A stretch of 64,000 nucleotides of DNA. Source: Squalus acanthias. Lineage: Eukaryota. Every line of letters begins with the position of its first letter. The stretch's first letter is position 1. The stretch covers positions 64,792,001 to 64,856,000 of the forward strand of contig CM059432.1 in the NCBI GenBank assembly GCA_030390025.1, written 5' to 3'. A program made the translations under genes and the position numbers. Of this stretch, positions 7,662-55,211 are shown in pieces. Under the pieces are notes generated by a model. That model made no database searches and was not told the DNA's origin. It saw nothing but the letters and a program-made list of their open reading frames with translations.

Positions 7662-8480
7662 ATTAAAAAATGCTGGAAATACTCGGCGGGTCAGGCAGCA
7701 TCTGTGGAGAGAGAAACGGAGTTAATGGTCCCGACATTTACTCGGAGCCACATTGGGAGCGGGGGAGTCCGATATCGTGCGGGAAACTGGAAGTAAGTTC
7801 AGTGCGTCTGTCTGTGGCTTTTTAAGTCAGCCAGCTCATTAGCATTTTACTTCTGGGATTGTCATCCAATCAGCGGCAGCGGATGTGATGAAGACACGCA
7901 TGATGCAATCTCAACTCCAGTATTTAAAGAGGCAATCCGAAGATGCAATTTGGAAGGTTGGGATGTGGGTGTCGCTGGCAAGGCCATCATTTATTGCCCA
8001 TCCCTAGTTGCCCTTGAGAAAGTGTCTTGAACACCTTCTTGAACTGCTGCAGTCCGTGCGGTGAAGTGTAGAAAGTAACCTCTCAGCAGAAGTACAGTGA
8101 CCAAACTCTTTCCCAGGTAAGAAAGCAGCTGTGAGTACTGAGTATTTAGTGCAGCATTTGCATGAGTTTGATTAACCGCTCAATGCCTTCACTGGCAAGT
8201 TTCAGGAAGCTGGGGAAATCCGTGGATGCGCTGTTAAATTTAAAAGTCAGTTGAAATCGCTTCTCCCGAGGAGGTTGCGCACGCAGCCTAACACACTTCA
8301 GTTAAACGTGGAAGTTGGCAGGTTGGAGCCAGCTTCCCGACTCGCTGATATTTTTGCCGGTTTTAATCCCCCCTACAGGTTAAAATTCCCCTCAATGTTT
8401 CAGGTCAATGACCTTTGGTCATCAGATTTATCAGATCAGATGTATTTCAGATTTCCAACATCCACAGTATTTTGCTTTTG
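7662..8480 (-). mobile_element. Penelope pLTR-derived mini-element whose hammerhead is split by a MITE (7727-8393, AAT TSD)
   Basis: 15-bp TSD ttaacatagattaat at 7647-7661 and 8481-8495; antisense pLTR plus sense pLTR tail. Confidence 0.8.
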
Positions 8481-9213
8481 TTAACATAGATTAATGGCTT
8501 GTTCAGAATAGTGGATAGAGTGAAAGAAATACAAAACAAGAAGACAGCACTCGAGTGTAACACCAGCAACTTATTAAAATGCTAGTGGATATTTTGCTAT
8601 CAAGCATTGTAATATTGCACTGCCACTTGAACCCATGCACATTTTTTGACTGGTTCGCTGCCATTGCACACGCAACAGCATCAAGTCATCATCGTATCGT
8701 ATCTTCACACTCTTCCCTGCCACAAGGCTACACATGGCTTGGCATTATCATTGTATTTGGCGAGGTCAGTACTATTACAAGACTCAGACAGGAGTTCACA
8801 GTGGAGCAGATGGTCCATCGTTTGCGGCTCACGACCACAGTCGTACCTTACCGAATTACTGTCATTATAACTACGTTCCCACATTATGGGGGGAATTTTA
8901 ACCCCACAAAACAGATGGGTTGGAGTCGAGTGGGAGGTTACAGTGTAAAAAAACTGAATCCCGACCCCAACCCACTCACTTCCGGTTTTAACGGAGGCGG
9001 GACGGGGGGTGGGGAGCCAACCTGCTCCCAGGAGGCAAGTCGTCCATTTAAATATTATAATGAGGCTGGCATGCCTCATGGTTATAGACCATTACAGATT
9101 TAACTCTGTACAGATTCCAACTAAACTTCCACCCTTCGTGTTTCGGATCCACCCAGGATTACAAATATCTCCAAGATATTCATCGTTCCTCGAACTACTG
9201 CTCTCGCCGCATC

Positions 9214-11679
9214 TTGAGATCCACGCTCAATGCCATGCGGCGCCACATGAACACTCTCGACATCTCTCTTCAGCAGCACCGACGCACTCTATCTCAAAGC
9301 TGTCCAGGTCCACAGTTCCATTTCATCCTTAGACTCATCCGACGCTTCAACAAAAAACTTTTCTTCTTCCTTTCCGATGTCAAGGATCGCAAGCTTCAAC
9401 AACTCTTGGACACTAAAGCCCCTCCGGAACTTTCTTCCCCTTCACTTTCCTCTGACCCCCCTTCTCCCAATCTCACCCCCTGCCGCGTTTTCACTATCCC
9501 CTCTGACCTTCCCCTCTCTGACTCCGAACGATCAGTCCTCAGCAAAGGCCTGAGCTTCATCCCCTTACGCCCCCATCTCAATGAATTTCGAGCTCGGCAC
9601 GATGCTGAGCTCTTTTTCCGCCGCCTCCGTCTCCGTGCCCACTTCTCTGGCCAGGAGTCTTCCCCCCGCACGGCTGACCCTTTCTCCCGCTTTCAGAATT
9701 CTCGTTCCACCTGGACCCCTCCCTCTGGCCTCTTACCCTCTCTTGATCTTTTCATTGCTAACTGCCGCCGTGACATCGGCCAGCTCAATTTCTCTGCTCC
9801 CCTCACTCACTCCAACCTACCTCCCTCTGAACTTGCAGCACTCCATTCTCTCCGATCCAACCCTGACATTGTCATTAAACCTGCTGACAAGGGTGGCGCT
9901 GTTGTTGTTTGGCGAACCGACCTCTACCTAGCGGAAGTTGAACGCCAACTCTCTGACACCTCCTCCTACCTCCACCTGGACCATGACCCCACTACCGAAC
10001 ATCAAGCCACCGTGTCCAAGACTGTCACTGACCTCATCTCCTCTGGAGATCTTCCCCCCACGGCCGCCAACCTCATAGTTCCCCAACCCCGCACAGCCCG
10101 CTTCTACCTCCTTCCCAAGATCCACAAACAGGACTGCCCCGGTAGACCCATCGTTTCAGCCTGTTCTTGCCCCACGGAACTTATCTCTTCCTATCTCGAC
10201 TCTATTTTTTCTCCCCTTGTCCAGTCTCTTCCCACCTACATCCGCGACTCTTCCGATGCCCTCCGCCATTTTAACAGTTTCCAGTTTCCCGGCCCCAACC
10301 GTCTCCTCTTCACTATGGACGTACAATCCCTCTACACCTCCATTCCCCACCAGGATGGCCTGAGGGCGCTCCGCTTCTTCCTTGAACAGAGGCCCAACCA
10401 GTCCCCATCCACCACCACCCTCCTCCGCCTGGCTGAACTTGTTCTCACATTGAACAACTTCTCCTTTGACTCTACCCATTTCCTCCAAATTAAATGTGTT
10501 GCTATGGGTACCCGCATGGGTCCTAGCTATGCCTGCCTTTTCGTGGGATATGTGGAACACTCTTTGTTCCAGTCCTACTCGGGTCCCCTCCCTCACCTCT
10601 TTTTCCGGTACATTGATGACTGTATCGGTGCCGTCTCCTGCTCTCGCCCTGAACTAGAACATTTCATTCACTATGCTTCCAATTTCCACCCTTCCCTCAC
10701 CTTCACATGGTCCATCTCCGACTCTTCTCTTCCCTTCCTCGACTTCTCCATCTCCATCTCTGGGGATAGGTTATTGACTAACATTCACTACAAGCCCACC
10801 GACTCCCACAGCTACCTGGACTACACTTCCTCCCACCCCGCCTCCTGTAAGGACTCTATTCCATTCTCCCAGTTTCTCCGTCTCCGCCGCATCTGCTCTG
10901 ATGATGCCACCTTCCATACCAGTGCTTCCGACATGTCTTCCTTTTTCCTCAACCGAGGATTCCCCTCTACCGTGGTCGACACGGCCCTCGACCGTGTCCG
11001 TTCTATCTCCCGCACATCTGCCCTCACCCCTGCCCCTCCCTCCCGGAACCACGATAGGGTTCCCCTTGTCCTCACCTTTCACCCCACCAGCCTCCACATT
11101 CAACGGATCATCCTCCGCCATTTCCGCCACCTCCAGCGTGATCCCACCACCAAACACATCTTCCCCTCACCTCCCCTTTCAGCATTCCGCAGGGACCGCT
11201 CCCTCCGCGACACCCTAGTCCACTCCTCTACCACCCCCAGCACCCCTTCCCCTTCGCCCGGCACCTTCCCGTGCACGCGCAGGAGATGCAACACATGCCC
11301 TTATACCTCCCCTCTTCCCACTGTCCAGGGCCCCAAACACCCCTTCCAGGTGAAACAGCGATTTACTTGTACTTCCTGCAATTTAGTATACTGTATTCGC
11401 TGCTCACGATGTGGACTCCTCTACATTGGGGAGACCAAACGCAGATTGGGTGACCGCTTTGCGGAACACCTCCGTTCAGTCCGTAAGGGGGACCCCGAGC
11501 TCCCGGTGGCCTGTCACTTTAATTCACCGCTTCACTCCCACTCTGACCTCACCGTCCTCGGCCTAATACACTGTTCCACGGAAGCTCAGCGTAAGCTCGA
11601 GGAACAGCACCTCATCTTTCGTTTAGGCACGCTACAGCCCTCTGGACTCAATATCGAGTTCAACAATTTTAGATCATAA
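9214..11679 (+). CDS. Penelope-like RT - Cys-rich linker - GIY-YIG endonuclease polyprotein (frame open from 9088, native start missing)
   Basis: KPADKGG, FYLLPKIHK, PGRPIVS, TMDVQSLYT, AMGTRMGPSYA, RYIDD, CTRRRCNTC, VYCIRCSRCGLLYIGET..R..EH, GLN. Confidence 0.93.
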   Translation: MRSTLNAMRRHMNTLDISLQQHRRTLSQSCPGPQFHFILRLIRRFNKKLFFFLSDVKDRKLQQLLDTKAPPELSSPSLSSDPPSPNLTPCRVFTIPSDLPLSDSERSVLSKGLSFIPLRPHLNEFRARHDAELFFRRLRLRAHFSGQESSPRTADPFSRFQNSRSTWTPPSGLLPSLDLFIANCRRDIGQLNFSAPLTHSNLPPSELAALHSLRSNPDIVIKPADKGGAVVVWRTDLYLAEVERQLSDTSSYLHLDHDPTTEHQATVSKTVTDLISSGDLPPTAANLIVPQPRTARFYLLPKIHKQDCPGRPIVSACSCPTELISSYLDSIFSPLVQSLPTYIRDSSDALRHFNSFQFPGPNRLLFTMDVQSLYTSIPHQDGLRALRFFLEQRPNQSPSTTTLLRLAELVLTLNNFSFDSTHFLQIKCVAMGTRMGPSYACLFVGYVEHSLFQSYSGPLPHLFFRYIDDCIGAVSCSRPELEHFIHYASNFHPSLTFTWSISDSSLPFLDFSISISGDRLLTNIHYKPTDSHSYLDYTSSHPASCKDSIPFSQFLRLRRICSDDATFHTSASDMSSFFLNRGFPSTVVDTALDRVRSISRTSALTPAPPSRNHDRVPLVLTFHPTSLHIQRIILRHFRHLQRDPTTKHIFPSPPLSAFRRDRSLRDTLVHSSTTPSTPSPSPGTFPCTRRRCNTCPYTSPLPTVQGPKHPFQVKQRFTCTSCNLVYCIRCSRCGLLYIGETKRRLGDRFAEHLRSVRKGDPELPVACHFNSPLHSHSDLTVLGLIHCSTEAQRKLEEQHLIFRLGTLQPSGLNIEFNNFRS

Positions 11680-11955
11680 CCTCAGCTCCAATCACATTTA
11701 TATTTTATTTTATCCACCCTTTTATTTGTCCCCCCCACCTTTTTTTTCCTCCTAGAAGCTGGCAGCTGTCCTTCATTCTGCCAGTAGATTTCACACTTCA
11801 TTCAGCCTTAATCTGTCACATTAACACCACCTCTAGCCTTGCATATCTCTTAATGTCTCTTAATGTCTCTTCATCTCCTCCTTTGTTCCTTTATCCCCTC
11901 CCCCTTTTCCCAGCTTTACCCTGGCCTTAAATCTATTTGATTTCCAGCTCTTCCC

Positions 11956-11992
11956 AGTTCTGATGAAAGGTCATCGACCTGAAACGTCAACT
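11956..11992 (+). ncRNA. Minimal type-I hammerhead ribozyme in Penelope pLTR (GUC cleavage triplet)
   Basis: AGUU-CUGAUGA-A-AGGUC(AUC)GACCU-GAAA-C-GUC-AACU: conserved core, stem I AGUU/AACU, 5-bp stem II, vestigial stem III. Confidence 0.88.
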
Positions 11993-13784
11993 CTCTTTCT
12001 CTCTCCACGGATGCTGCCTGGCCTGCTGAGTTTTTCCAGCGTTTTCTGTTGTTATTACAGATTTAAATCTGGCTGGTCGGGTTTTCCGGGCCTAACAGAA
12101 CCCGCCAGCTAAAGGAAGGTGAGGACTGCTGGATCCAGGAGCTAAGTGTCTTTCCATTTACCTCCTGGATCCAGCGTCCCTGCCTCAACAACGCTCTGCG
12201 ATCGGACACCCCGAGGCCTCCGATCCCCCTCCGGCCCACAATTACCTTCCCGGCCTCACCCCTCCAGCCAATGCTCATCTGGCTCCTGAGTCCCGACCCT
12301 CCCCCCAATGCTCCTTTGGCTCCCGATGGTCCTGTGGCCCTCGATGCTCCTCTGGCTCCCGATTCCTAAGTCCCGAGTCCTGACCAGCCTTCCCCCGATG
12401 CTCCTCCAGCCCCCAACACTTCTCCGGCTCCCAAGTCCTGACCACCGCCCCTCCCCACTGATGCTCCACTGGCCCCTGATGCTCCACCGGCTCCTGACCA
12501 CCGCCCTCCCCACCTACCCGCCCACAGCCAGCCAGCATCTCCATCTGGCTGGCTGCGGCTGGGAAACAGAGGTTTGAAATGCAAATCAAGTCCTGCTGTT
12601 CTCCCAGGTTTCCCAACTGCTCTCTAGCACCCCTGCTCCTGACCCGCCTCCAGATTAAATATCGGCCCATTAGTTTTGAACAACCAGTACCAGTGCGTAA
12701 GCAATTGGCCACGGTTCAGAGTCGCCAGCTGGGAGATTCTCATTGGGTTTGATATTCAAACGATATGACTTAATCCATACATGTATTTATTCTCCACTGT
12801 TTTATATTGGAGTCAAGAGGGTTGATAGAGGGCAGGAAACTGCGTCTCGACTTCAGTCTACTCTGTGCAGCATGATGCTGGAACAAGGGACGGTGAGGGT
12901 CATTAGATTGTCTGTTTCTTTCAGCTGCTCTTTGTATGTCTAGCGGTGCAATACCTGACAGTAGGTAAGGATTGTCTATCTTGGTAGGTTTAGGGCAACC
13001 AGTAATGCAACAGCAGCAGGCATTAAGAACAGAATACAATTTCTTTGCATAGGTGCAGCGTTCCCATACATATTCGGCAGCCGAAGAATGGAGTGTCAGA
13101 GCTGTAGTCCTGATAGTGTTTGCCCACTTTCAGCTAGCCAGATTTCATAGGATGTTATTGCTAGCTCCAACTTTAGCTTTGATGATGTGTTTCATATAAC
13201 TCAAAGTGTAATGCAGTGTCACACAAAGATAGACAGAATTCAAACAATGATTAAGTCTATTCCCATATCACTCAATATGTAATTCCCGTTTAGCTTCTCT
13301 ATTCTTAAAGTGGAATGCATATACCTGTATCCTATCCAGATTGGCCCTTAGTAGATTGGAGGTATAGTATTGTTTCAGCCAAGATAGCACGTCACTCAGG
13401 GTTATTTCAATCCTATCAAAAGTCCAGCTTTGAGCCATAACATAAAGACCATCTGCATATAGGAAACTTCTAGTCCATGGATGGATATGTTGGTCGTTGG
13501 GGTATCTATTATACATATATATTGAATTGCATTGGTGCTAGCAAACTACCTTGTGAGAGTCAATTTCTTGCCTATGCCAACAGCTTTTTTTACCGTATGG
13601 TTCCATTAAAAATGGCGATTTGCCAAGAAAGTTTGGATGAGCTCTATGATAAGCATCCTTTGTCATATTGAAAGCCTTCTGCACAAGTATTTGGTGATTA
13701 GCAGTGTCATAGGCAACTGACAGGTCAAAAAAGCTCCAGTTATTAGGCCTTGTTCAAATCCATCTTCAACATATTAGATCAGAT

Positions 13785-14837
13785 CGCACTTCTGCTCTCA
13801 CCCCTTCCCCTCCCTTCCAGAACCATGATAGAGTTCCACTTGTCCTCACCTTGCACCCCACCAGCCTCCACATTCAACGGATCATCCTCCGCCATTTCCA
13901 CCACCTCCAGCGCGATCCCACCACCAAACACATCTTCCCTTCCACTCCCCTTTCAGCATTCCGAAGGGACCGTTCCCTCTGCGACAAACTGGTCCACTCC
14001 TCAATCACCCCTAATACCCCTTCCCTTCCCACGGCACCTTCCCGTGCAAGCACGGGAGATGCAATACCTGCCCTTTCACCTCCTCCCTTCCCACCGTCCA
14101 GGGCCCCAAACACTCCTTCCAGGTTAAACAGTGATTTACTTGTACTTCTTGCAATTTAGTATACTGTATTCGCTGCTCACGATGCAGTCTCCTCTACATT
14201 GGGGAGACCAAACGCAGATTGGGTGACTGCTTTGCGGAACACCTCTTCTCAGTCCGCAAGCGTGGCCCCAAGCTTCCGGTTGCCTGTCACTTTAATTCTC
14301 CGTGCCACTCCCACTCTGACCTCTCTGCCCTCGGCCTCTTACACTGTTCCAACGAATCTCAACACATGCTCAAGGAACAGCACCTCATCTTTCGATTAGG
14401 CACTTTGCAGCCTTCTGGACTCAACATCGAGTTCAACAATTTCAGACCATAACATCTGCCCCCATTTTTTCAGATGGCAGCTGTTAATGATTCTGCCATT
14501 CCCATTTACACCTATTCTAGACTCATATTTTATTTCTTTACTTGTCCCATTACCATCTCCTTTTGCTTTGTACAATCATACCTTTTGTCATTTAATCTCT
14601 CCTGCCTTCCACCCTATCACAGACCTTCCCTTTTGTTCTTTCCTCCGCCCTCCCACTTTCCCTGCCCTTGCACTTGCTTAAACTTGTTACATTCCTAACT
14701 TTTTCCAGTTCTGATGAAAGGTCATCCACCTGAAACATTAACTCTGTTTCTCTCTCCACAGATACTGCCTGACCTGCTGAGTATTTCCAGCTTTTTCTGT
14801 TTTTATTTCAGATTTCCAGCATCCGCAATATTTTGCT
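13785..14837 (+). mobile_element. 5'-truncated Penelope copy (frameshifted GIY-YIG, 3'UTR, pLTR)
   Basis: Similar to 11010-11680; TSD ttagatcagat at 13774-13784 and 14838-14848. Confidence 0.92.
14707..14743 (+). ncRNA. Decayed minimal hammerhead motif
   Basis: AGUU-CUGAUGA-A-AGGUCAUCCACCU-GAAA-CAUU-AACU; one stem II mismatch and CpG decay. Confidence 0.7.
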
Positions 14838-14956
14838 TTAGATCAGATTAAGTAGTCAGCTTGTGCAGGATCTTCAAGGCAGAATCCTGCCTGTTCTAGG
14901 ATAAGCTGCTGTTCCACATGGGGATAGAGCCGGTTCAAATAACATAACACTATTGG

Positions 14957-15062
14957 TCTGTAATAACAACAGACAACGCTGGAAAAACTCAGCAGGCCAG
15001 GCAGCATCCGTGGAGAGAGAAACAGAGTTAACGTTTCAGGTCGAAGACCCTTCGTCAGAACT
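14957..15062 (-). mobile_element. About 106-bp solo pLTR mini-insert with an intact hammerhead motif (15026-15062)
   Basis: Reverse complement AGUU-CUGACGA-A-GGGUC(UUC)GACCU-GAAA-CGUU-AACU; the rest is nearly identical to the pLTR at 11993-12062. Confidence 0.87.
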
Positions 15063-19379: not shown

Positions 19380-19705
19380 AAAAGTAGAAAATGCTTGAAC
19401 ACTCAGCAGGTCAGGCAGCATCTTTGGAGAAAGGAAAAGACATATGTTTCCGGTCTAAAATAAAAACAGAAAATGCTGGAAATACTCAGCAGGTCAGGCA
19501 GCATCTGTGGAGAGAGAAACAGAGTTAACGTTTCAGGTCGATGACCCTTCGTCAGAACTGCAGTATTTTGCTTTTGTGTTTCCGGTCTAAACCTTGTTCA
19601 GAACATTTTTTCTCTTTCCACAAATGCTGGCTCGCCTGCTGAGTGTTCCCAGCATTTTCTATTTTTGTTTCGGGTTTACAACATCTGCAATATTTTGCTT
19701 TTTGT
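19380..19705. mobile_element. Nested Penelope pLTR mini-elements: 117-bp inner copy (19460-19576) inside an older inverted-pLTR copy
   Basis: TSD tgtttccggtctaaa at 19445-19459 and 19577-19591. Confidence 0.85.
19523..19559 (-). ncRNA. Minimal hammerhead ribozyme motif
   Basis: Reverse complement AGUU-CUGACGA-A-GGGUC(AUC)GACCU-GAAA-CGUU-AACU. Confidence 0.85.
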
Positions 19706-30929: not shown

Positions 30930-32050
30930 TCATTCAGGGGAACCGGACTCTGATGATGCGCTCATGGACGGTCCGTCTGAAACGTGGATATGCAGGCTGC
31001 CTCCTCCCTTCCTCCTTCTCCTCCTCCTCCTCCTGAGGCGGTCGCAGAACCTGTGATGGCAAGGGCTATGCCCTCATGATGGCCAAGCTGTGGGGGAGGC
31101 AGCAGACCACCACGAATTGGGACACCCGCTCCAGTGATTACTGGAGGGCTCCTCCCAACCGGTCAAGGCAGCTGAACTGTTAATTCAGCACCCCAAAGAT
31201 CTGCTCGATTACTTTCCACATGGCATCATGGCTGTCTTTATATGAGTGCTGGCCATGCGTGGTGAGGTTGCGGAGGCAGGGGGGTCATCAGCCAGGTGTA
31301 GAGCGGATAGCCCTTGTCACTGAGCAGCCACCCTTGGGTTTGACGTGGTGGCTGGAAGATTGCTGGCACAGCGGACTGGCGCAGGATGAACGCATTATGA
31401 TTGTTGCCAGGATAGCGGGCATTTACCAGCATGATGTATTGGGCATGGTCGCACATCAACTGTACATTAAGTGAGTGGTAATCTTTGCAGTTATGGAACA
31501 TCTCACCATTGAAATGCGGCATCCACAAAGCCACTTGTGTGCAGTCGATGGCACCCTGCACCATGGGGAAGCCCGCTCTCCTGGCAAAGCCACTTGCACG
31601 CTCCTCCTGCTTCTCTCTGTTTAGAGAGAAGACAATGAAGTCCTTTCTCCTAGCATACAGACCCTCTGTGACCGCCTGGATGCAGTGCTGGACGACGAAC
31701 TGCAAAATGTTTGCTATGTTGCCTGTTCCAGCCTGGAAGGATCCACTGGTGAAAATATTCAGGGCCACAGCCACCTTGAGGGCCACTGGCAGTACCGTCA
31801 TCGCCCTGCTCTGAGGCTGCAGGTCTGGTTCCAAGTTCTGTGACCCCTCCTTGGCGAAGCGGAGCTGACAAACACACTGCTCCTGGCTTAGGTGCAGGTA
31901 GGAGAAGTGCTCCCTGAAGACCCCAGGTTGGTAAGGCCTCCCACTGAGAGCCCTCCTCCTCCCTTTGTGAGCAACTTGTCTTTTTTGCTGCCTCTGCTTC
32001 ATCTCCCTGTCATGCTGCAGCACAAGGGGGACTACAACTAGACCCTCCAT
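30930..32050 (-). pseudogene. Harbinger (HARBI1-like, DDE_Tnp_4) transposase, frameshifted
   Basis: GFPMVQGAIDCTQVAL, YHSLNVQLMCD, ARYPGNNHNAFIL, GWLLSDKGYPL, then IEQIFGVL*..FSCLD in another frame. Confidence 0.92.
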
Positions 32051-46520: not shown

Positions 46521-47788
46521 ACATAGAAACATAGAAGATAAGAGCAGGAGTAGGCCATTCGGCCCCTCGAGCCTGTTCAGCCATGATCGCATTAAATGGC
46601 GGATCATCCAAATTCAGTACCCTGTCCCTGCTTTCTCCCCATATCCCTTGATCCCTTTAGCCTTAAGAAATATATCTAACTCCTTTTTGAATATATTTAA
46701 TGAATTGGCCTCAACTGCCTTCTGTGGTAGAGAATTCCACAGGTTCACCACTCTCTGGGTGAAGAAATTCCTCCTCATCTCAGTCCTAAATGGCTTACCC
46801 CTTATCCTTAGTCTGTGACCCCTGGTTCTGGACTCCCCGCCATCGGGAACATCCTTCCTGCATCTAATCTGTCTAGTCCTGTTAGAATTTTATAAGTTTC
46901 AATGAGATCCCCTCTCATTCTTCTAAACTCTAGCGAATACAAGCCCAATCGACCCAATCTCTCTTCATACGTCATTCCTGCCATCCCAGGTATCAGTCTA
47001 GTGAATCTTCGCTGCACTCCCTCCATGGCAAGAACATCCTTCCTCAGATAAGGCAACCAAAACTGCACACAATACTCAAGGTGTGGTCTCACCAAGGCCC
47101 TGTACAACTGCAGCAAGACATTCTTGCTCCTGTACTCGAATCCTCTCGCTATGAAGGCCAACATACCATTTGCCTTCTTAACCGCCTGCTGCACCTGCAT
47201 GCTTACCTTCAGCGACTGGTGCACAAGGACACCCAGGTCTCGTTGCACTTCCCCTTTTCCCAATCTATTGCCATTCAGATAATAATCTGCCTTCCTGTTT
47301 TTGCCACCAAAGTGGATAACCTCGCATTTATCCACATTATACTGCATCTGCCATGCATCTGCCCAATCACCCAACCTGTCCAAATCATATTGGAGTTTCT
47401 CTGCATCCTCCTCACAGCACACATGCCCACCCAAGTTTGTGTCGTCTGCAAACTTGGAGATATTACATCTAGTTCCCTCGTCTAGATCATTAATATATAT
47501 TGTGAATAGCTGGGGTCCTAGCACCGATCCTTGTTGTACCCCACTAGTCACTGCCTGCCACTCGGAAAAATACCCGTTTATTCCAACTCTTTGCTTCCTG
47601 TCTGCCAACCAGTTCTCTATCCAAGTCAGTACCTTACCCGCAATCCCATGTGCTTTAACTTTGCATGCTAATCTCTTACGTGAGACCTTATCAAAAGCCT
47701 TTTGAAAGTCCAAATACACCACATCCACTGGTTCTCCCTTATCTATTCTACCAGTTACATCCTCAAAAAATTCCAGTAGATTAGCCAC
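46521..47788 (-). mobile_element. Young CR1 with RT core and 3'UTR
   Basis: ORF 46808..47788 YLDFQKAFDKV, QGSVLGP, KFADD; frameshift near the end. Confidence 0.95.
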
Positions 47789-52200: not shown

Positions 52201-52741
52201 CTAAGGTGTGGTGCCCAGAACAGCTCACAGTACTCCAGCTGTGGTCTAACCAAGGTTTTGTATAGCTGCAGCATAACTTCTAACCCCTTGTATTCTAGTC
52301 CTCTAGATATAAAGGCCAGTATTCCATTAGCCTTTTTGATTATTTTCTGTACCTGTTCTGTGAAGGAATTCTACTATATAACCTGTTTAGAAAAATATAC
52401 TATATAAGATAAATACACTATAGCTTTTTTAGAAAAATACACTATATAACTTTTTTAAAGGAAGGCATGGCAAGCTGGATTTGGAAATCCTACCTTCTGA
52501 AAGAATTTTGGCCTCATTGAGATAAGACAGTGGTTAACCCTGAAAAGTACCTTATAAGGAACTCTACCTTATAAATTCTTTGGAACATGACAAACTGGGT
52601 TTGGAAATTTAGAAACCTAACAATGAAATAGCTATGAAAGAATTCTGGCTATTGAAATAGGACAAGTTGTTGACCCTGAATAAGTAACCTTATTGAAACA
52701 GAAGAATGGGTGGCCCCGAATAGGTAACCTTATTAAAATAA

Positions 52742-53293
52742 AAATGAGAAGTCGCACAACACCAGGTTATAGTCCAACAGATTTATTTAAAATTACAAGC
52801 TTTCGGAGCTGTCGCCCCTTCCTCAGGTAAAGTTACAATGAGTGAATCTACAATATTTCACAGTATATAGACACAGAAACTGCAGAGATACAATCTTTCA
52901 GGGAAGGTGTCTTTACATCAAAGACACACCAAGAGCACAGCCAAGACAATGAGATGTGTCACAGGGGGGGTCCAATGTGTCAAATCCTGCTGTCTGCAGT
53001 GGTTTTTTTTGGGGGGGTTTTTTAGGTTTGGTTTTTTAGTGTTTTTTTTTAAAACTGGAAAGACAGACAACGATGTCGAGTTACGTTCTGTAGCGTGACA
53101 TGAACCCGATATCCCTATTGAGGCCGTCCTCATGGGTGCGGAACTAGATTCACTCATTGTAACTTTACCTGAGGAAGGGGCGACAGCTCCGAAAGCTTGT
53201 AATTTTAAATAAATCTGTTGGACTATAACCTGGTGTTCTGCGACTTCTCATTTTTGTCCACCCCAGTCCAACGCCGGCATCTCCGCATCATGA
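52742..53293 (-). mobile_element. Second-family Penelope fragment with inverted pLTRs
   Basis: Minus strand FRTHEDGLNRDIGFMSRYRT* (GIY-YIG C-terminus); 110-bp inverted repeats; TSD ttattaaaataa at 52730-52741 and 53294-53305. Confidence 0.88.
53165..53202 (+). ncRNA. Minimal hammerhead ribozyme, family 2 (identical antisense copy at 52793-52830)
   Basis: UUAC-CUGAGGA-A-GGGGC(GACA)GCUCC-GAAA-GCUU-GUAA. Confidence 0.8.
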
Positions 53294-55211
53294 TTATTAA
53301 AATAAGACAATGGTCAGCCCTGGATGAATTATCTTGATTAAAACCTCTTGAGAATGAAATGATGTAAGGTACATCTGCCCTTTGCCCACATATGGTAAAC
53401 TCCCAATAGCTATTGATGATGTGGCTGTAAGAATTTCAGTCGGTCAGCTAAAAGATGATTAGTGATAATTAACTTGGATCAACAGAAACCTTATAAAAAA
53501 CAACTGAAAAAGGGGTATAAATATTGGAGTCTCGAATGAGAAAATCAGACTCGCTTTAATCGGGCAAAGCGATTCTCGACTACAGCAGCAGCTCTGTAGT
53601 CCTTCACTCTTTTGTACCTCGGGGATTGAAGGTAACTGCTACCTTGATAATTGATGGATATCCTGTAATAGACAAGTTTAAGAACGGTAATACTGTGGCG
53701 AAGTTAAGATTTATAAGTAGGATTCTCTGTTAAGGATAAGATTGTATTTTTTCTCTTTTTAAAACTGTTAACATTGCAATGGACTGATTCACCAACTGTA
53801 AATTGCATGTCGTTTTTTTCAATAAATCTCTATATATTTTTAGAATTGTCTCATATAAGTCTTCTGTGTCAATAACTCGCGAACCCAATCTTTGTACACT
53901 CTTTGGTGAAGAGTTACAATTTCTGAAGGAAATCTCCGGACCCTCATCCGGGACTTTACTGTCTGGCTAAACTTATTAAAAGTGCTATCTGGAGGACGGT
54001 AACATTCTCGGGTTGTTCCTTTCCTTTAGGGAGAGATAGCCCAGACCTTTAGACCCAGTTAAGCGTCTTTAGGATTCGGCTACCTCAACCTTTAGTTGAA
54101 AGTGAACATCTGAGAAATACGCCTGATCCGGGGTAGCCCCAAAGGGGCTGGGACTAGTAAATATCCTTTCAGTTAAAGACATTTTAATGATCTATGTACC
54201 TGGACCCCCAAGTCTCTTTGAACCTCCACTGTTTTTAGCTTTTCACCATTTAGAATGTATCTTATTCTATCCTTTTTAGATCCAAAGTGGATGACCTCAC
54301 ATTTGCTTACATTGAAATTGGGAGCCTGATTTGAAGTTAACTGCTGCTGCATGGGTTTCCCAGGGGTCAGGAAACTTGGCAGTGAAACATAGGTGGGAGC
54401 TGCCAGCTCCACAAGTTAAGTGGCTGTGCCAGCGCTCGTTGTAGGCCAGGAGTGGCAGGAGTGCTTCCCTCCAATCCACTCAAGGAAGCTTTCGGCCTCC
54501 ACCAGCCCCGATTGCCAGCCTATCCCCAGCCCTCTCGATCGCAGGCATCCATTCCACGATTGTCGATATCCCTCCTCCTTCCAATTGCCAACCTCAAGCC
54601 ACCCCCCACCACCTGATTGTTGACCTGCCCCCTCTGATTGTCCAGGACCGTCCCCAAGGATCCCGGGCTGCGAGCTCCTGGTGCTAGTGCTTTTTCCTGC
54701 CTGCTGGGCAGGCTGTCCCTTTAGCCAACTCCTGGGTGGGAGGCAGAGCTGTAAAATGTCTCCCTTCTTCCCGGGTTCTTTGGCTGTTTTAAGCTTCACT
54801 CAAACCCTTCCCACTTCCCTGTAAATAACAAGGTCATTATTTGTGTTTTCAATTTCACCCATTTTCTCACCTGTTCCATGGGTGTGCCTCTCAAACGTTC
54901 TTTGTTTCTTTAATATTGTTAATTTTTTTGATGCTTCTTTCCATTACCTGACTGAGATCATCTGTCGCATCATCTAGCAATCATTTCTCCAAATCCTTCC
55001 TTTTTCAGATTCTATTAAATGTTTGTTCATCATCTCTCAATTTTTTTCAGTTCTGAAGAAGGGGCCAACCTGAAATATTGACTGAAAGGCTTTGAAACCT
55101 GCTTGGTTCCTAGTATGTCATGTTGAGAAATGCCCTCATATTTACCCTAAATTTTACTGCAACGCAAGCACTAACACAACGACCAAGAAGAAAATTGATT
55201 CTGTGCTAACC

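What the first reader, a model, noticed from the sequence alone, without database searches (positions are those of the whole stretch)
11956..11992. Hammerhead ribozyme whose variation across copies preserves the fold
Seen: between the copies at 11956, 15026 and 19523, differences fall at the free N7 position (U/C), the stem II loop (AUC/UUC), an A-U to G-U pair and the cleavage H (GUC/GUU). The CUGANGA/GAAA core and stem I are invariant, and all copies have an extra A before stem II. Established: minimal hammerheads with a palindromic stem III (AACGUU) cleave mainly as dimers. Inference: the fold was under selection while the family was active. The copy attached to the intact ORF has the favourable GUC triplet.
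Basis: partly seen in the sequence, partly recalled or inferred. Interest (0 to 1): 0.7.

Follow-up and report, generated by a model that had tools for sequence, protein, structure and literature searches.

The report
Penelope retroelement minimal hammerhead, known type
The motif is a real minimal hammerhead-ribozyme sequence in the end repeat of a Penelope-like jumping gene of a shark-like genome, a kind described in 2014, and the few local copies do not by themselves show that its fold was selected.

Summary
The 37-nt motif at 11956-11992 is real: a minimal type I hammerhead (min-HHR), 277 nt downstream of the RT + GIY-YIG ORF of a Penelope-like element (PLE) with a Neptune/Nematis-type linker. 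This arrangement was published in 2014 (PMC4209133), and the scan has noted it before on other shark DNA, including this genome.

Two omitted copies (14707; the split copy at 7700/8400) break the fold. Over four full copies the motif differs as much as its 3' flank (9.0% vs 9.1%), with no compensatory change. GUC is a rare variant: 94-100% of contig depth in four runs reads GUU, including an ORF-linked contig. The 'intact' ORF is 5'-truncated and has no upstream hammerhead.

Selection on the fold does show between families: other PLE families here and in related loci keep the core, the extra A and a pairable 15.2-16.2 with different stems. Most likely an inert copy of a weak, dimer- or protein-dependent ribozyme. 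Cleavage untested. One open lead: many roughly 100-nt copies begin at the edge of stem I, not at the cut site.

The parts
11956..11992 (+). Minimal type I hammerhead: 4-bp stem I, core, extra A, 5-bp stem II (A10.1-U11.1), no own stem III, GUC triplet, predicted cut after 11988
9112..11679 (+). 5'-truncated PLE ORF (RT with YIDD, CX4CX2C linker, GIY-YIG-type endonuclease). Frame open from 9088, homology from about 9112; about 55-60 N-terminal residues of full-length relatives are missing
   Evidence: (RVT_1 and GIY-YIG both below gathering cut-off)
11680..11955 (+). 3' untranslated / pLTR part upstream of the hammerhead, ending in a pyrimidine tract and CAG
11993..12064 (+). Conserved pLTR part downstream of the hammerhead, shared by all copies
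9092..9104 (+). 13-bp sequence repeated at 12053-12065: probable target-site duplication with microhomology to the element end
13785..14840 (+). Second, shorter 5'-truncated PLE copy (80-85% amino-acid identity to the ORF end); its hammerhead 14707-14743 has a broken stem II top pair and a broken 15.2-16.2 pair
14957..15062 (-). Solo unit of about 105 nt that begins exactly at stem I; hammerhead 15026-15062, GUU
19386..19700 (.). Complex PLE remnant: unit 19459-19560 (minus; hammerhead 19523-19559, GUU), partial tandem 19386-19455 (minus), inverted head-to-head piece 19609-19678 (plus)
7667..8426 (-). Decayed copy split inside the hammerhead by an insertion of about 660 bp with a 4-bp repeat at both ends; pieces 7667-7723 and 8397-8426
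52740..53255 (.). Second min-HHR family as a head-to-head inverted pair (C3 at 52826 minus and 53169 plus; arms 111 nt, 99% identical), with different stems, G10.1-C11.1 and G-C at 15.2-16.2
55047..55086 (+). Third, more divergent min-HHR-like copy (C3 at 55053), U-A at 15.2-16.2, weak stem II, preceded by a pyrimidine tract and CAG

Best explanation
It is the minimal type I hammerhead in the pseudo-LTR of a Penelope-like retrotransposon of the Neptune/Nematis type. It has no stem III of its own, so one copy cannot fold actively. In tandem element RNA two copies would pair their self-complementary A15.1-C15.2-G16.2-U16.1 segments and swap stem I strands, or the element's protein would chaperone the fold, giving slow cleavage after H17 (11988). 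The family form is GUU; GUC here is a rare variant. This copy is a 5'-truncated insertion with no upstream repeat and no intact same-strand partner nearby, so it is most likely inert, and genomic copies decay neutrally. SHOWN: anatomy, position behind the ORF, majority GUU, truncation, broken copies, covariation between families. INFERRED from published relatives: dimer or protein dependence, weak cleavage, a role in processing element RNA.
For: ORF relatives at 66-70% identity named from Chiloscyllium and Rhincodon; CX4CX2C linker (definition from passages of PMC8557442). The published min-HHR features are present: extra nucleotide after A9, palindromic 15.2-16.2, no helix III (PMC4209133). 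In 20 related PLE loci, 9 of 11 sequence-only core matches fold, against 0 in 200 shuffles. Across 12 motifs, 2.1-1.1, 2.2-1.2, 10.1-11.1, 10.2-11.2, 10.3-11.3 and 15.2-16.2 pair in 12 of 12, with 3-5 pair types each. All 8 of 8 loci that reach the ORF end and hold 400 nt or more after it have such a motif 110-1030 nt downstream. Monomers were inactive and dimers weak for the S. mansoni min-HHR; the Anolis PLE hammerhead cuts only with protein added and is not needed for insertion in vitro (PMC11167929).
Against: No Rfam hammerhead hit. Nearest-neighbour energies disfavour the active forms: hammerhead monomer -5.9 vs MFE -9.1/-9.5; double hammerhead -8.5/-9.9 vs dimer MFE -22.9/-23.7 kcal/mol; stem I pair probability 0.01-0.12 in a 105-nt context. 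The 10.1-11.1 pair is A-U or G.U, not the consensus G-C. Within the family the motif is no more conserved than its flank. Three of the 8 loci (one family) have U4 changed to C. No cleavage was tested, and no contig end at 11989 is among the 18 loose-end rows shown (575 not shown).
Confidence: 0.85

Rival explanations
1. The shark family's motif is a catalytically dead descendant: a true min-HHR by ancestry, kept as an RNA-processing or protein-binding signal at the pLTR (splice acceptor, transcript start), with GUU, a weakened 10.1-11.1 pair and an inhibitory monomer helix.
For: Majority GUU; A-U or G.U at 10.1-11.1; the monomer MFE pairs U4-G8 with 15.2-1.1; short copies keep the uncut site and start at 11956; hammerhead mutants did not affect PAc insertion in vitro; 8 of 9 Xenopus retrozyme dimers showed no cleavage.
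Against: C-G-U-U at 15.2-17 stands in 15 of 56 published representative motifs (my count from Fig. S3 text), and A-U or G.U at 10.1-11.1 occur there too. The inhibitory helix is generic: it is in the MFE of about 6 of 12 motifs. The 11 core positions are intact in 4 of 4 full copies.
Confidence: 0.1
2. One reading: the 11956 copy is a still-functional master element whose GUC triplet was selected for efficient cleavage.
For: Uninterrupted 821-codon frame with RT and endonuclease motifs; GUC and GUA are the fastest triplets (passages of PMC3138052); in the three chosen copies all four differences are tolerated (P 0.004-0.033).
Against: C17 is at most 6% of depth in any of four runs; all six X7 contigs over 11988, including a 1203-nt one that runs into the ORF with 3 other letters, read T. 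The ORF lacks its N-terminus, and no hammerhead or pLTR lies upstream. U to C is a common transition.
Confidence: 0.04
3. A chance hammerhead-like pattern inside a repeat.
For: No Rfam hit; fold z-scores not significant.
Against: 0 hits in shuffles; same position and architecture in unrelated PLE families with different stems.
Confidence: 0.01

Closest known systems
Minimal hammerheads (min-HHR) in pLTRs of metazoan Penelope-like elements (Cervera and De la Pena 2014, PMC4209133)
   Same: Type I, CUGANGA and GAAA boxes, extra nucleotide between 9 and 10.1, no helix III with palindromic 15.2-16.2, 4-bp helix I, 3' of an RT-EN ORF, many solo and opposite-strand copies; GUU is common in their alignment.
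   Different: 10.1-11.1 is A-U or G.U instead of the consensus G-C (both also occur in their Fig. S3); no cartilaginous fish among their 56 rows; no cleavage data for this family.
PAc hammerhead, Poseidon element of Anolis carolinensis (Frangieh et al. 2024, PMC11167929)
   Same: pLTR hammerhead with stems I and II only; uncut RNA is the template, which fits copies here that keep the uncut site; tail downstream.
   Different: Poseidon clade, hammerhead overlaps the ORF start; the element here has the Zn-finger-like linker, and its ORF start was not found.
Drosophila virilis Penelope hammerhead with an intron ending at helix I (PMC4209133; PMC2377424)
   Same: A pyrimidine tract and AG abut the 5' strand of helix I (11957/11958; also at 14708 and 55051).
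   Different: No GTRAG donor in the 3' untranslated part here, only two inside the ORF end; splicing not shown.
Non-LTR retrozymes of animals (PMC7229834; bioRxiv 10.64898/2026.07.22.740005)
   Same: Short non-coding type I hammerhead units related to PLE pLTRs; reported in one chondrichthyan genome.
   Different: Copies here are solo or inverted, not tandem arrays (none at these places), and minimal rather than canonical.

Membership tests
PLE min-HHR | Core C3-U4-G5-A6-N7-G8-A9, G12-A13-A14-A15.1, U16.1-H17 | tested here: met
   4 of 4 full copies; the fifth, split copy has a 2-nt insertion beside the core
PLE min-HHR | Helix I of about 4-5 bp and a pairing helix II | tested here: met
   helix I 100%, helix II 95% of cells paired; stem I is weak in the predicted ensemble
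PLE min-HHR | Unpaired nucleotide between 9 and 10.1 | tested here: met
   A11967 in 4 of 4 copies; A in 12 of 12 motifs across families
PLE min-HHR | Palindromic 15.2-16.2, no helix III | tested here: met
   C-G in 3 of 4 full copies; C-A in 14707
PLE min-HHR | G10.1-C11.1 (consensus above 80%, not invariant) | tested here: inconclusive
   A-U in 2 and G.U in 2 copies: not the consensus pair, but both occur in published members
PLE min-HHR | Located in the pLTR of a PLE | tested here: met
   277 nt after the ORF stop; also behind the second ORF remnant
PLE min-HHR | Self-cleavage as dimer or with protein | not testable with these tools
   bench assay needed
Rfam hammerhead families (canonical HHR) | Covariance-model score; own helix III and loop I-II contact | tested here: not met
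   no match at E<=1; no helix III in the monomer
EN+ Penelope-like element | Single ORF with RT and C-terminal GIY-YIG endonuclease | tested here: met
   (weak, below cut-offs)
EN+ Penelope-like element | Partial tandems, inverted 5'-truncated copies, tail | tested here: met
   19386-19700 and 52740-53255; tail as loose end behind 12064
EN+ Penelope-like element, full-length | Complete ORF flanked by two pLTRs | tested here: not met
   N-terminus and 5' pLTR absent
Neptune/Nematis clades | CX2-5CxxC linker between RT and EN | tested here: met
   CX4CX2C; definition
Neptune/Nematis clades | Placement in an RT tree with reference elements | not tested
   no named reference sequences were fetched
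Non-LTR retrozyme | Tandem array of two or more hammerhead-bearing units | tested here: not met

The most novel reading that the evidence does not exclude
The 5' edge of stem I is a defined RNA boundary of this family (transcript start on an initiator-like CCAGTTC, or a 3' splice site at AG/UU as in D. virilis Penelope). The uncut hammerhead, self-inhibited by pairing of its core with its own cleavage site, is the template of an abundant non-autonomous unit of about 100 nt (11956 to about 12056). Hammerhead and 3' flank also reassort between subfamilies, possibly near the cut site: N7 and 10.1 group 11956 with 14707, while flank sites group 11956 with 15026.
Probability: 0.15. Interest if true: 0.45.

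Novelty: new member of a known kind. Interest (0 to 1): 0.12.

Why it matters
As it stands, little: one more family of a ribozyme class described in 2014 and present in very many copies. The role of PLE hammerheads is still open (passages of PMC8557442; PMC11167929). A young, high-copy vertebrate family with a GUU majority and sharply defined short copies would be a convenient system to ask whether cleavage, splicing or transcript start sets the 5' end of retrocopies.

Tried and rejected
Rfam scan at E<=1: four weak miRNA matches, no hammerhead. No whole genome is held, so no genome-wide census. Flank pattern in viral contigs: 0 matches. Flank pattern in metagenome contigs: 11 loci, all 21-22-nt chance matches without the motif. 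PLE relatives in viral contigs: 0 of 79 candidates. One search counted pairs with mis-registered columns and is discarded; one search replaces it. Contig depth was not used as copy number or expression; X3 may be the source of the window, and RNA status of X16 is a guess. Joints that skip 320-345 nt were rejected as intron evidence: the letters between are unknown and another subfamily's untranslated region explains them. The inhibitory monomer helix was rejected as family-specific. Look-ups of earlier findings by sequence and by place were empty.

Full report
Observation. The motif stands at 11956-11992 on the plus strand as described: 4-bp stem I, CUGAUGA, an extra A, a 5-bp stem II with a 3-nt loop, GAAA, then C, G, U and C17 at 11988. 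A degenerate pattern found 4 matches in the window against 0 in 100 shuffles, and a structural descriptor 6 against 0 in 50. The copies at 15026 and 19523 are on the minus strand. Rfam gave no hammerhead match at E up to 1; that the models miss it because helix III is absent is my inference.

Context. The motif lies 277 nt after the stop of an ORF (9214-11679) with weak Pfam RVT_1 and GIY-YIG matches, both below cut-off. Its best relatives (66-70% identity) are named from Chiloscyllium and Rhincodon, among 1993 hits of 7999 candidates scored. An alignment with 8 of these shows the RT motifs, a CX4CX2C linker and the endonuclease end; passages of PMC8557442 assign that linker to the Neptune and Nematis clades. 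The frame opens at 9088, homology starts near 9112, and about 55-60 N-terminal residues of full-length relatives are missing. No hammerhead or pLTR lies upstream. A 13-bp sequence stands at both ends (9092, 12053), probably a target-site duplication. The copy is therefore uninterrupted but 5'-truncated. The other copies show partial-tandem and head-to-head inverted forms typical of PLEs.

Does variation preserve the fold? With the fourth copy it is 4 of 6, P 0.04-0.22. Over the four full copies the motif differs by 9.0% per pair and the 68-nt 3' flank by 9.1%; variable sites 6 of 37 vs 10 of 68 (p=1.0); core 0 of 11 vs flank 10 of 68 (one-sided p=0.20). None of 10 pairs has a two-sided change. 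N7 C/U and the 16.2 G to A change sit at CpG sites (seen in the sequence). The split fifth copy was not in these counts.

GUC or GUU. I laid contigs of 4 of 21 listed runs on 11560-12080. T at 11988 carries 94% (X3, possibly the window's source), 100% (X7), 99.6% (X10) and 96% (X16) of contig depth, although the reference reads C. All six X7 contigs over the site read T, including a 1203-nt contig that runs into the ORF with 3 other letters. N7 is mixed (C 47%, 44%, 67% in X3, X10, X16). GUC is thus a rare variant, not a mark of the ORF-bearing form. GUC is the faster triplet (passages of PMC3138052), but C-G-U-U stands in 15 of 56 published representative min-HHRs (my count from Fig. S3 text).

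Where selection does show. A protein-based scan of genome contigs gave 20 PLE loci from 105 candidates. A sequence-only core pattern matched 11 times, and 9 of the 11 form stems I and II with a pairable 15.2-16.2; 200 shuffles gave 0.86 cores on average and no folding one. Across 12 motifs (3 window families, 9 loci) six helix positions pair in 12 of 12 with 3-5 pair types, and three others in 10-11 of 12. Dropped from that table: the non-folding cores at L012 and window 46406, the broken copy at 8425, and duplicate copies within a family. All 8 loci that reach the ORF end with 400 nt or more after it carry a motif 110-1030 nt downstream; in three of them (one family) U4 is C, which my pattern first missed. 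The window itself holds a second family as an inverted pair at 52826/53169 and a divergent copy at 55053.

Mechanism. With no helix III, the active fold needs two copies pairing A15.1-C15.2-G16.2-U16.1 and swapping stem I, as proposed for min-HHRs, where monomers were inactive and dimers weak (PMC4209133). For the Anolis element the hammerhead cut only with protein added, and cutting was not needed for insertion in vitro (PMC11167929). My energies point the same way. The monomer prefers a rod in which U4-G8 pairs with 15.2-1.1 (-9.1/-9.5 vs -5.9 kcal/mol), and the double hammerhead (-8.5/-9.9) lies far above the dimer MFE (-22.9/-23.7); these models ignore the non-canonical core. The only same-strand copy of this family near 11956 is the broken 14707. 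I conclude: a weak, dimer- or protein-dependent ribozyme of the element, inert at this locus. Cleavage was not tested.

Open lead. Contigs with unlike flanks end just before 11956 (81 in X3, agreement 0.35; 11 in X16) and after 12055-12056 (141 in X3; 4 in X16); no end at 11989 is among the 18 rows shown, 575 being hidden. Window copies 15026 and 19523 also begin at stem I. The edge matches an initiator-like YYANWYY (consensus recalled, from no call) and a pyrimidine-tract/CAG acceptor. In D. virilis the Penelope intron ends at helix I. No GTRAG donor lies in the untranslated part here. Both readings are untested.

Known or new. Papers seen: PMC4209133 parts 1-2 of 4 and supplement parts 1-2 of 3; PMC11167929 parts 1-2 of 4; bioRxiv 10.64898/2026.07.22.740005 parts 1-3 of 5 (its supplements are closed and may list the chondrichthyan families); passages of PMC8557442, PMC3846280, PMC2377424, PMC3138052, PMC6155905, PMC7229834. 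Searches for Penelope-like + hammerhead + shark (one irrelevant hit) and hammerhead + Penelope + cartilaginous (none) found no description of this family in the held library, and no cartilaginous fish is among the 56 rows of Fig. S3. Earlier notes of this scan report the same class in this and other shark genomes; they are leads, not support. Verdict: new member of a known kind, interest 0.12.

Noticed in passing
window 52740-52850 (-) and 53145-53255 (+): A second min-HHR family as a head-to-head inverted pair, arms 99% identical, with different stems and G-C at 15.2-16.2; no PLE ORF remnant next to it by tblastn.
   Followed up: partly
window 55047-55086 (+): A divergent min-HHR-like copy with U-A at 15.2-16.2, a longer stem I and a pyrimidine tract plus CAG at its 5' edge.
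   Followed up: partly
window 11956, 14707, 15026, 19523: Incongruent haplotypes: N7 and 10.1 group 11956+14707 against 15026+19523, while six flank sites group 11956+15026 against 14707+19523. Recombination, conversion or template switching; only four copies.
   Followed up: no
window 7728-8396: Insertion of about 660 bp inside a hammerhead copy, with a 4-bp repeat at both ends; looks like a non-autonomous DNA transposon remnant.
   Followed up: no
L012, L014, L018, about 110 nt after the ORF match: One PLE family whose min-HHR has C instead of U at position 4 in 3 of 3 copies; otherwise like the Acropora digitifera row of Fig. S3 in PMC4209133.
   Followed up: no
L012-L031: Eukaryote-type PLE ORFs with hammerheads in bacterial genome records, probably host DNA in the assemblies; L016 has the same hammerhead on both sides of the ORF.
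   Followed up: no
window 31238-32050 (-): DDE_Tnp_4 (Harbinger-type) transposase remnant; many LINE RT remnants elsewhere, e.g. 46808-47788.
   Followed up: no
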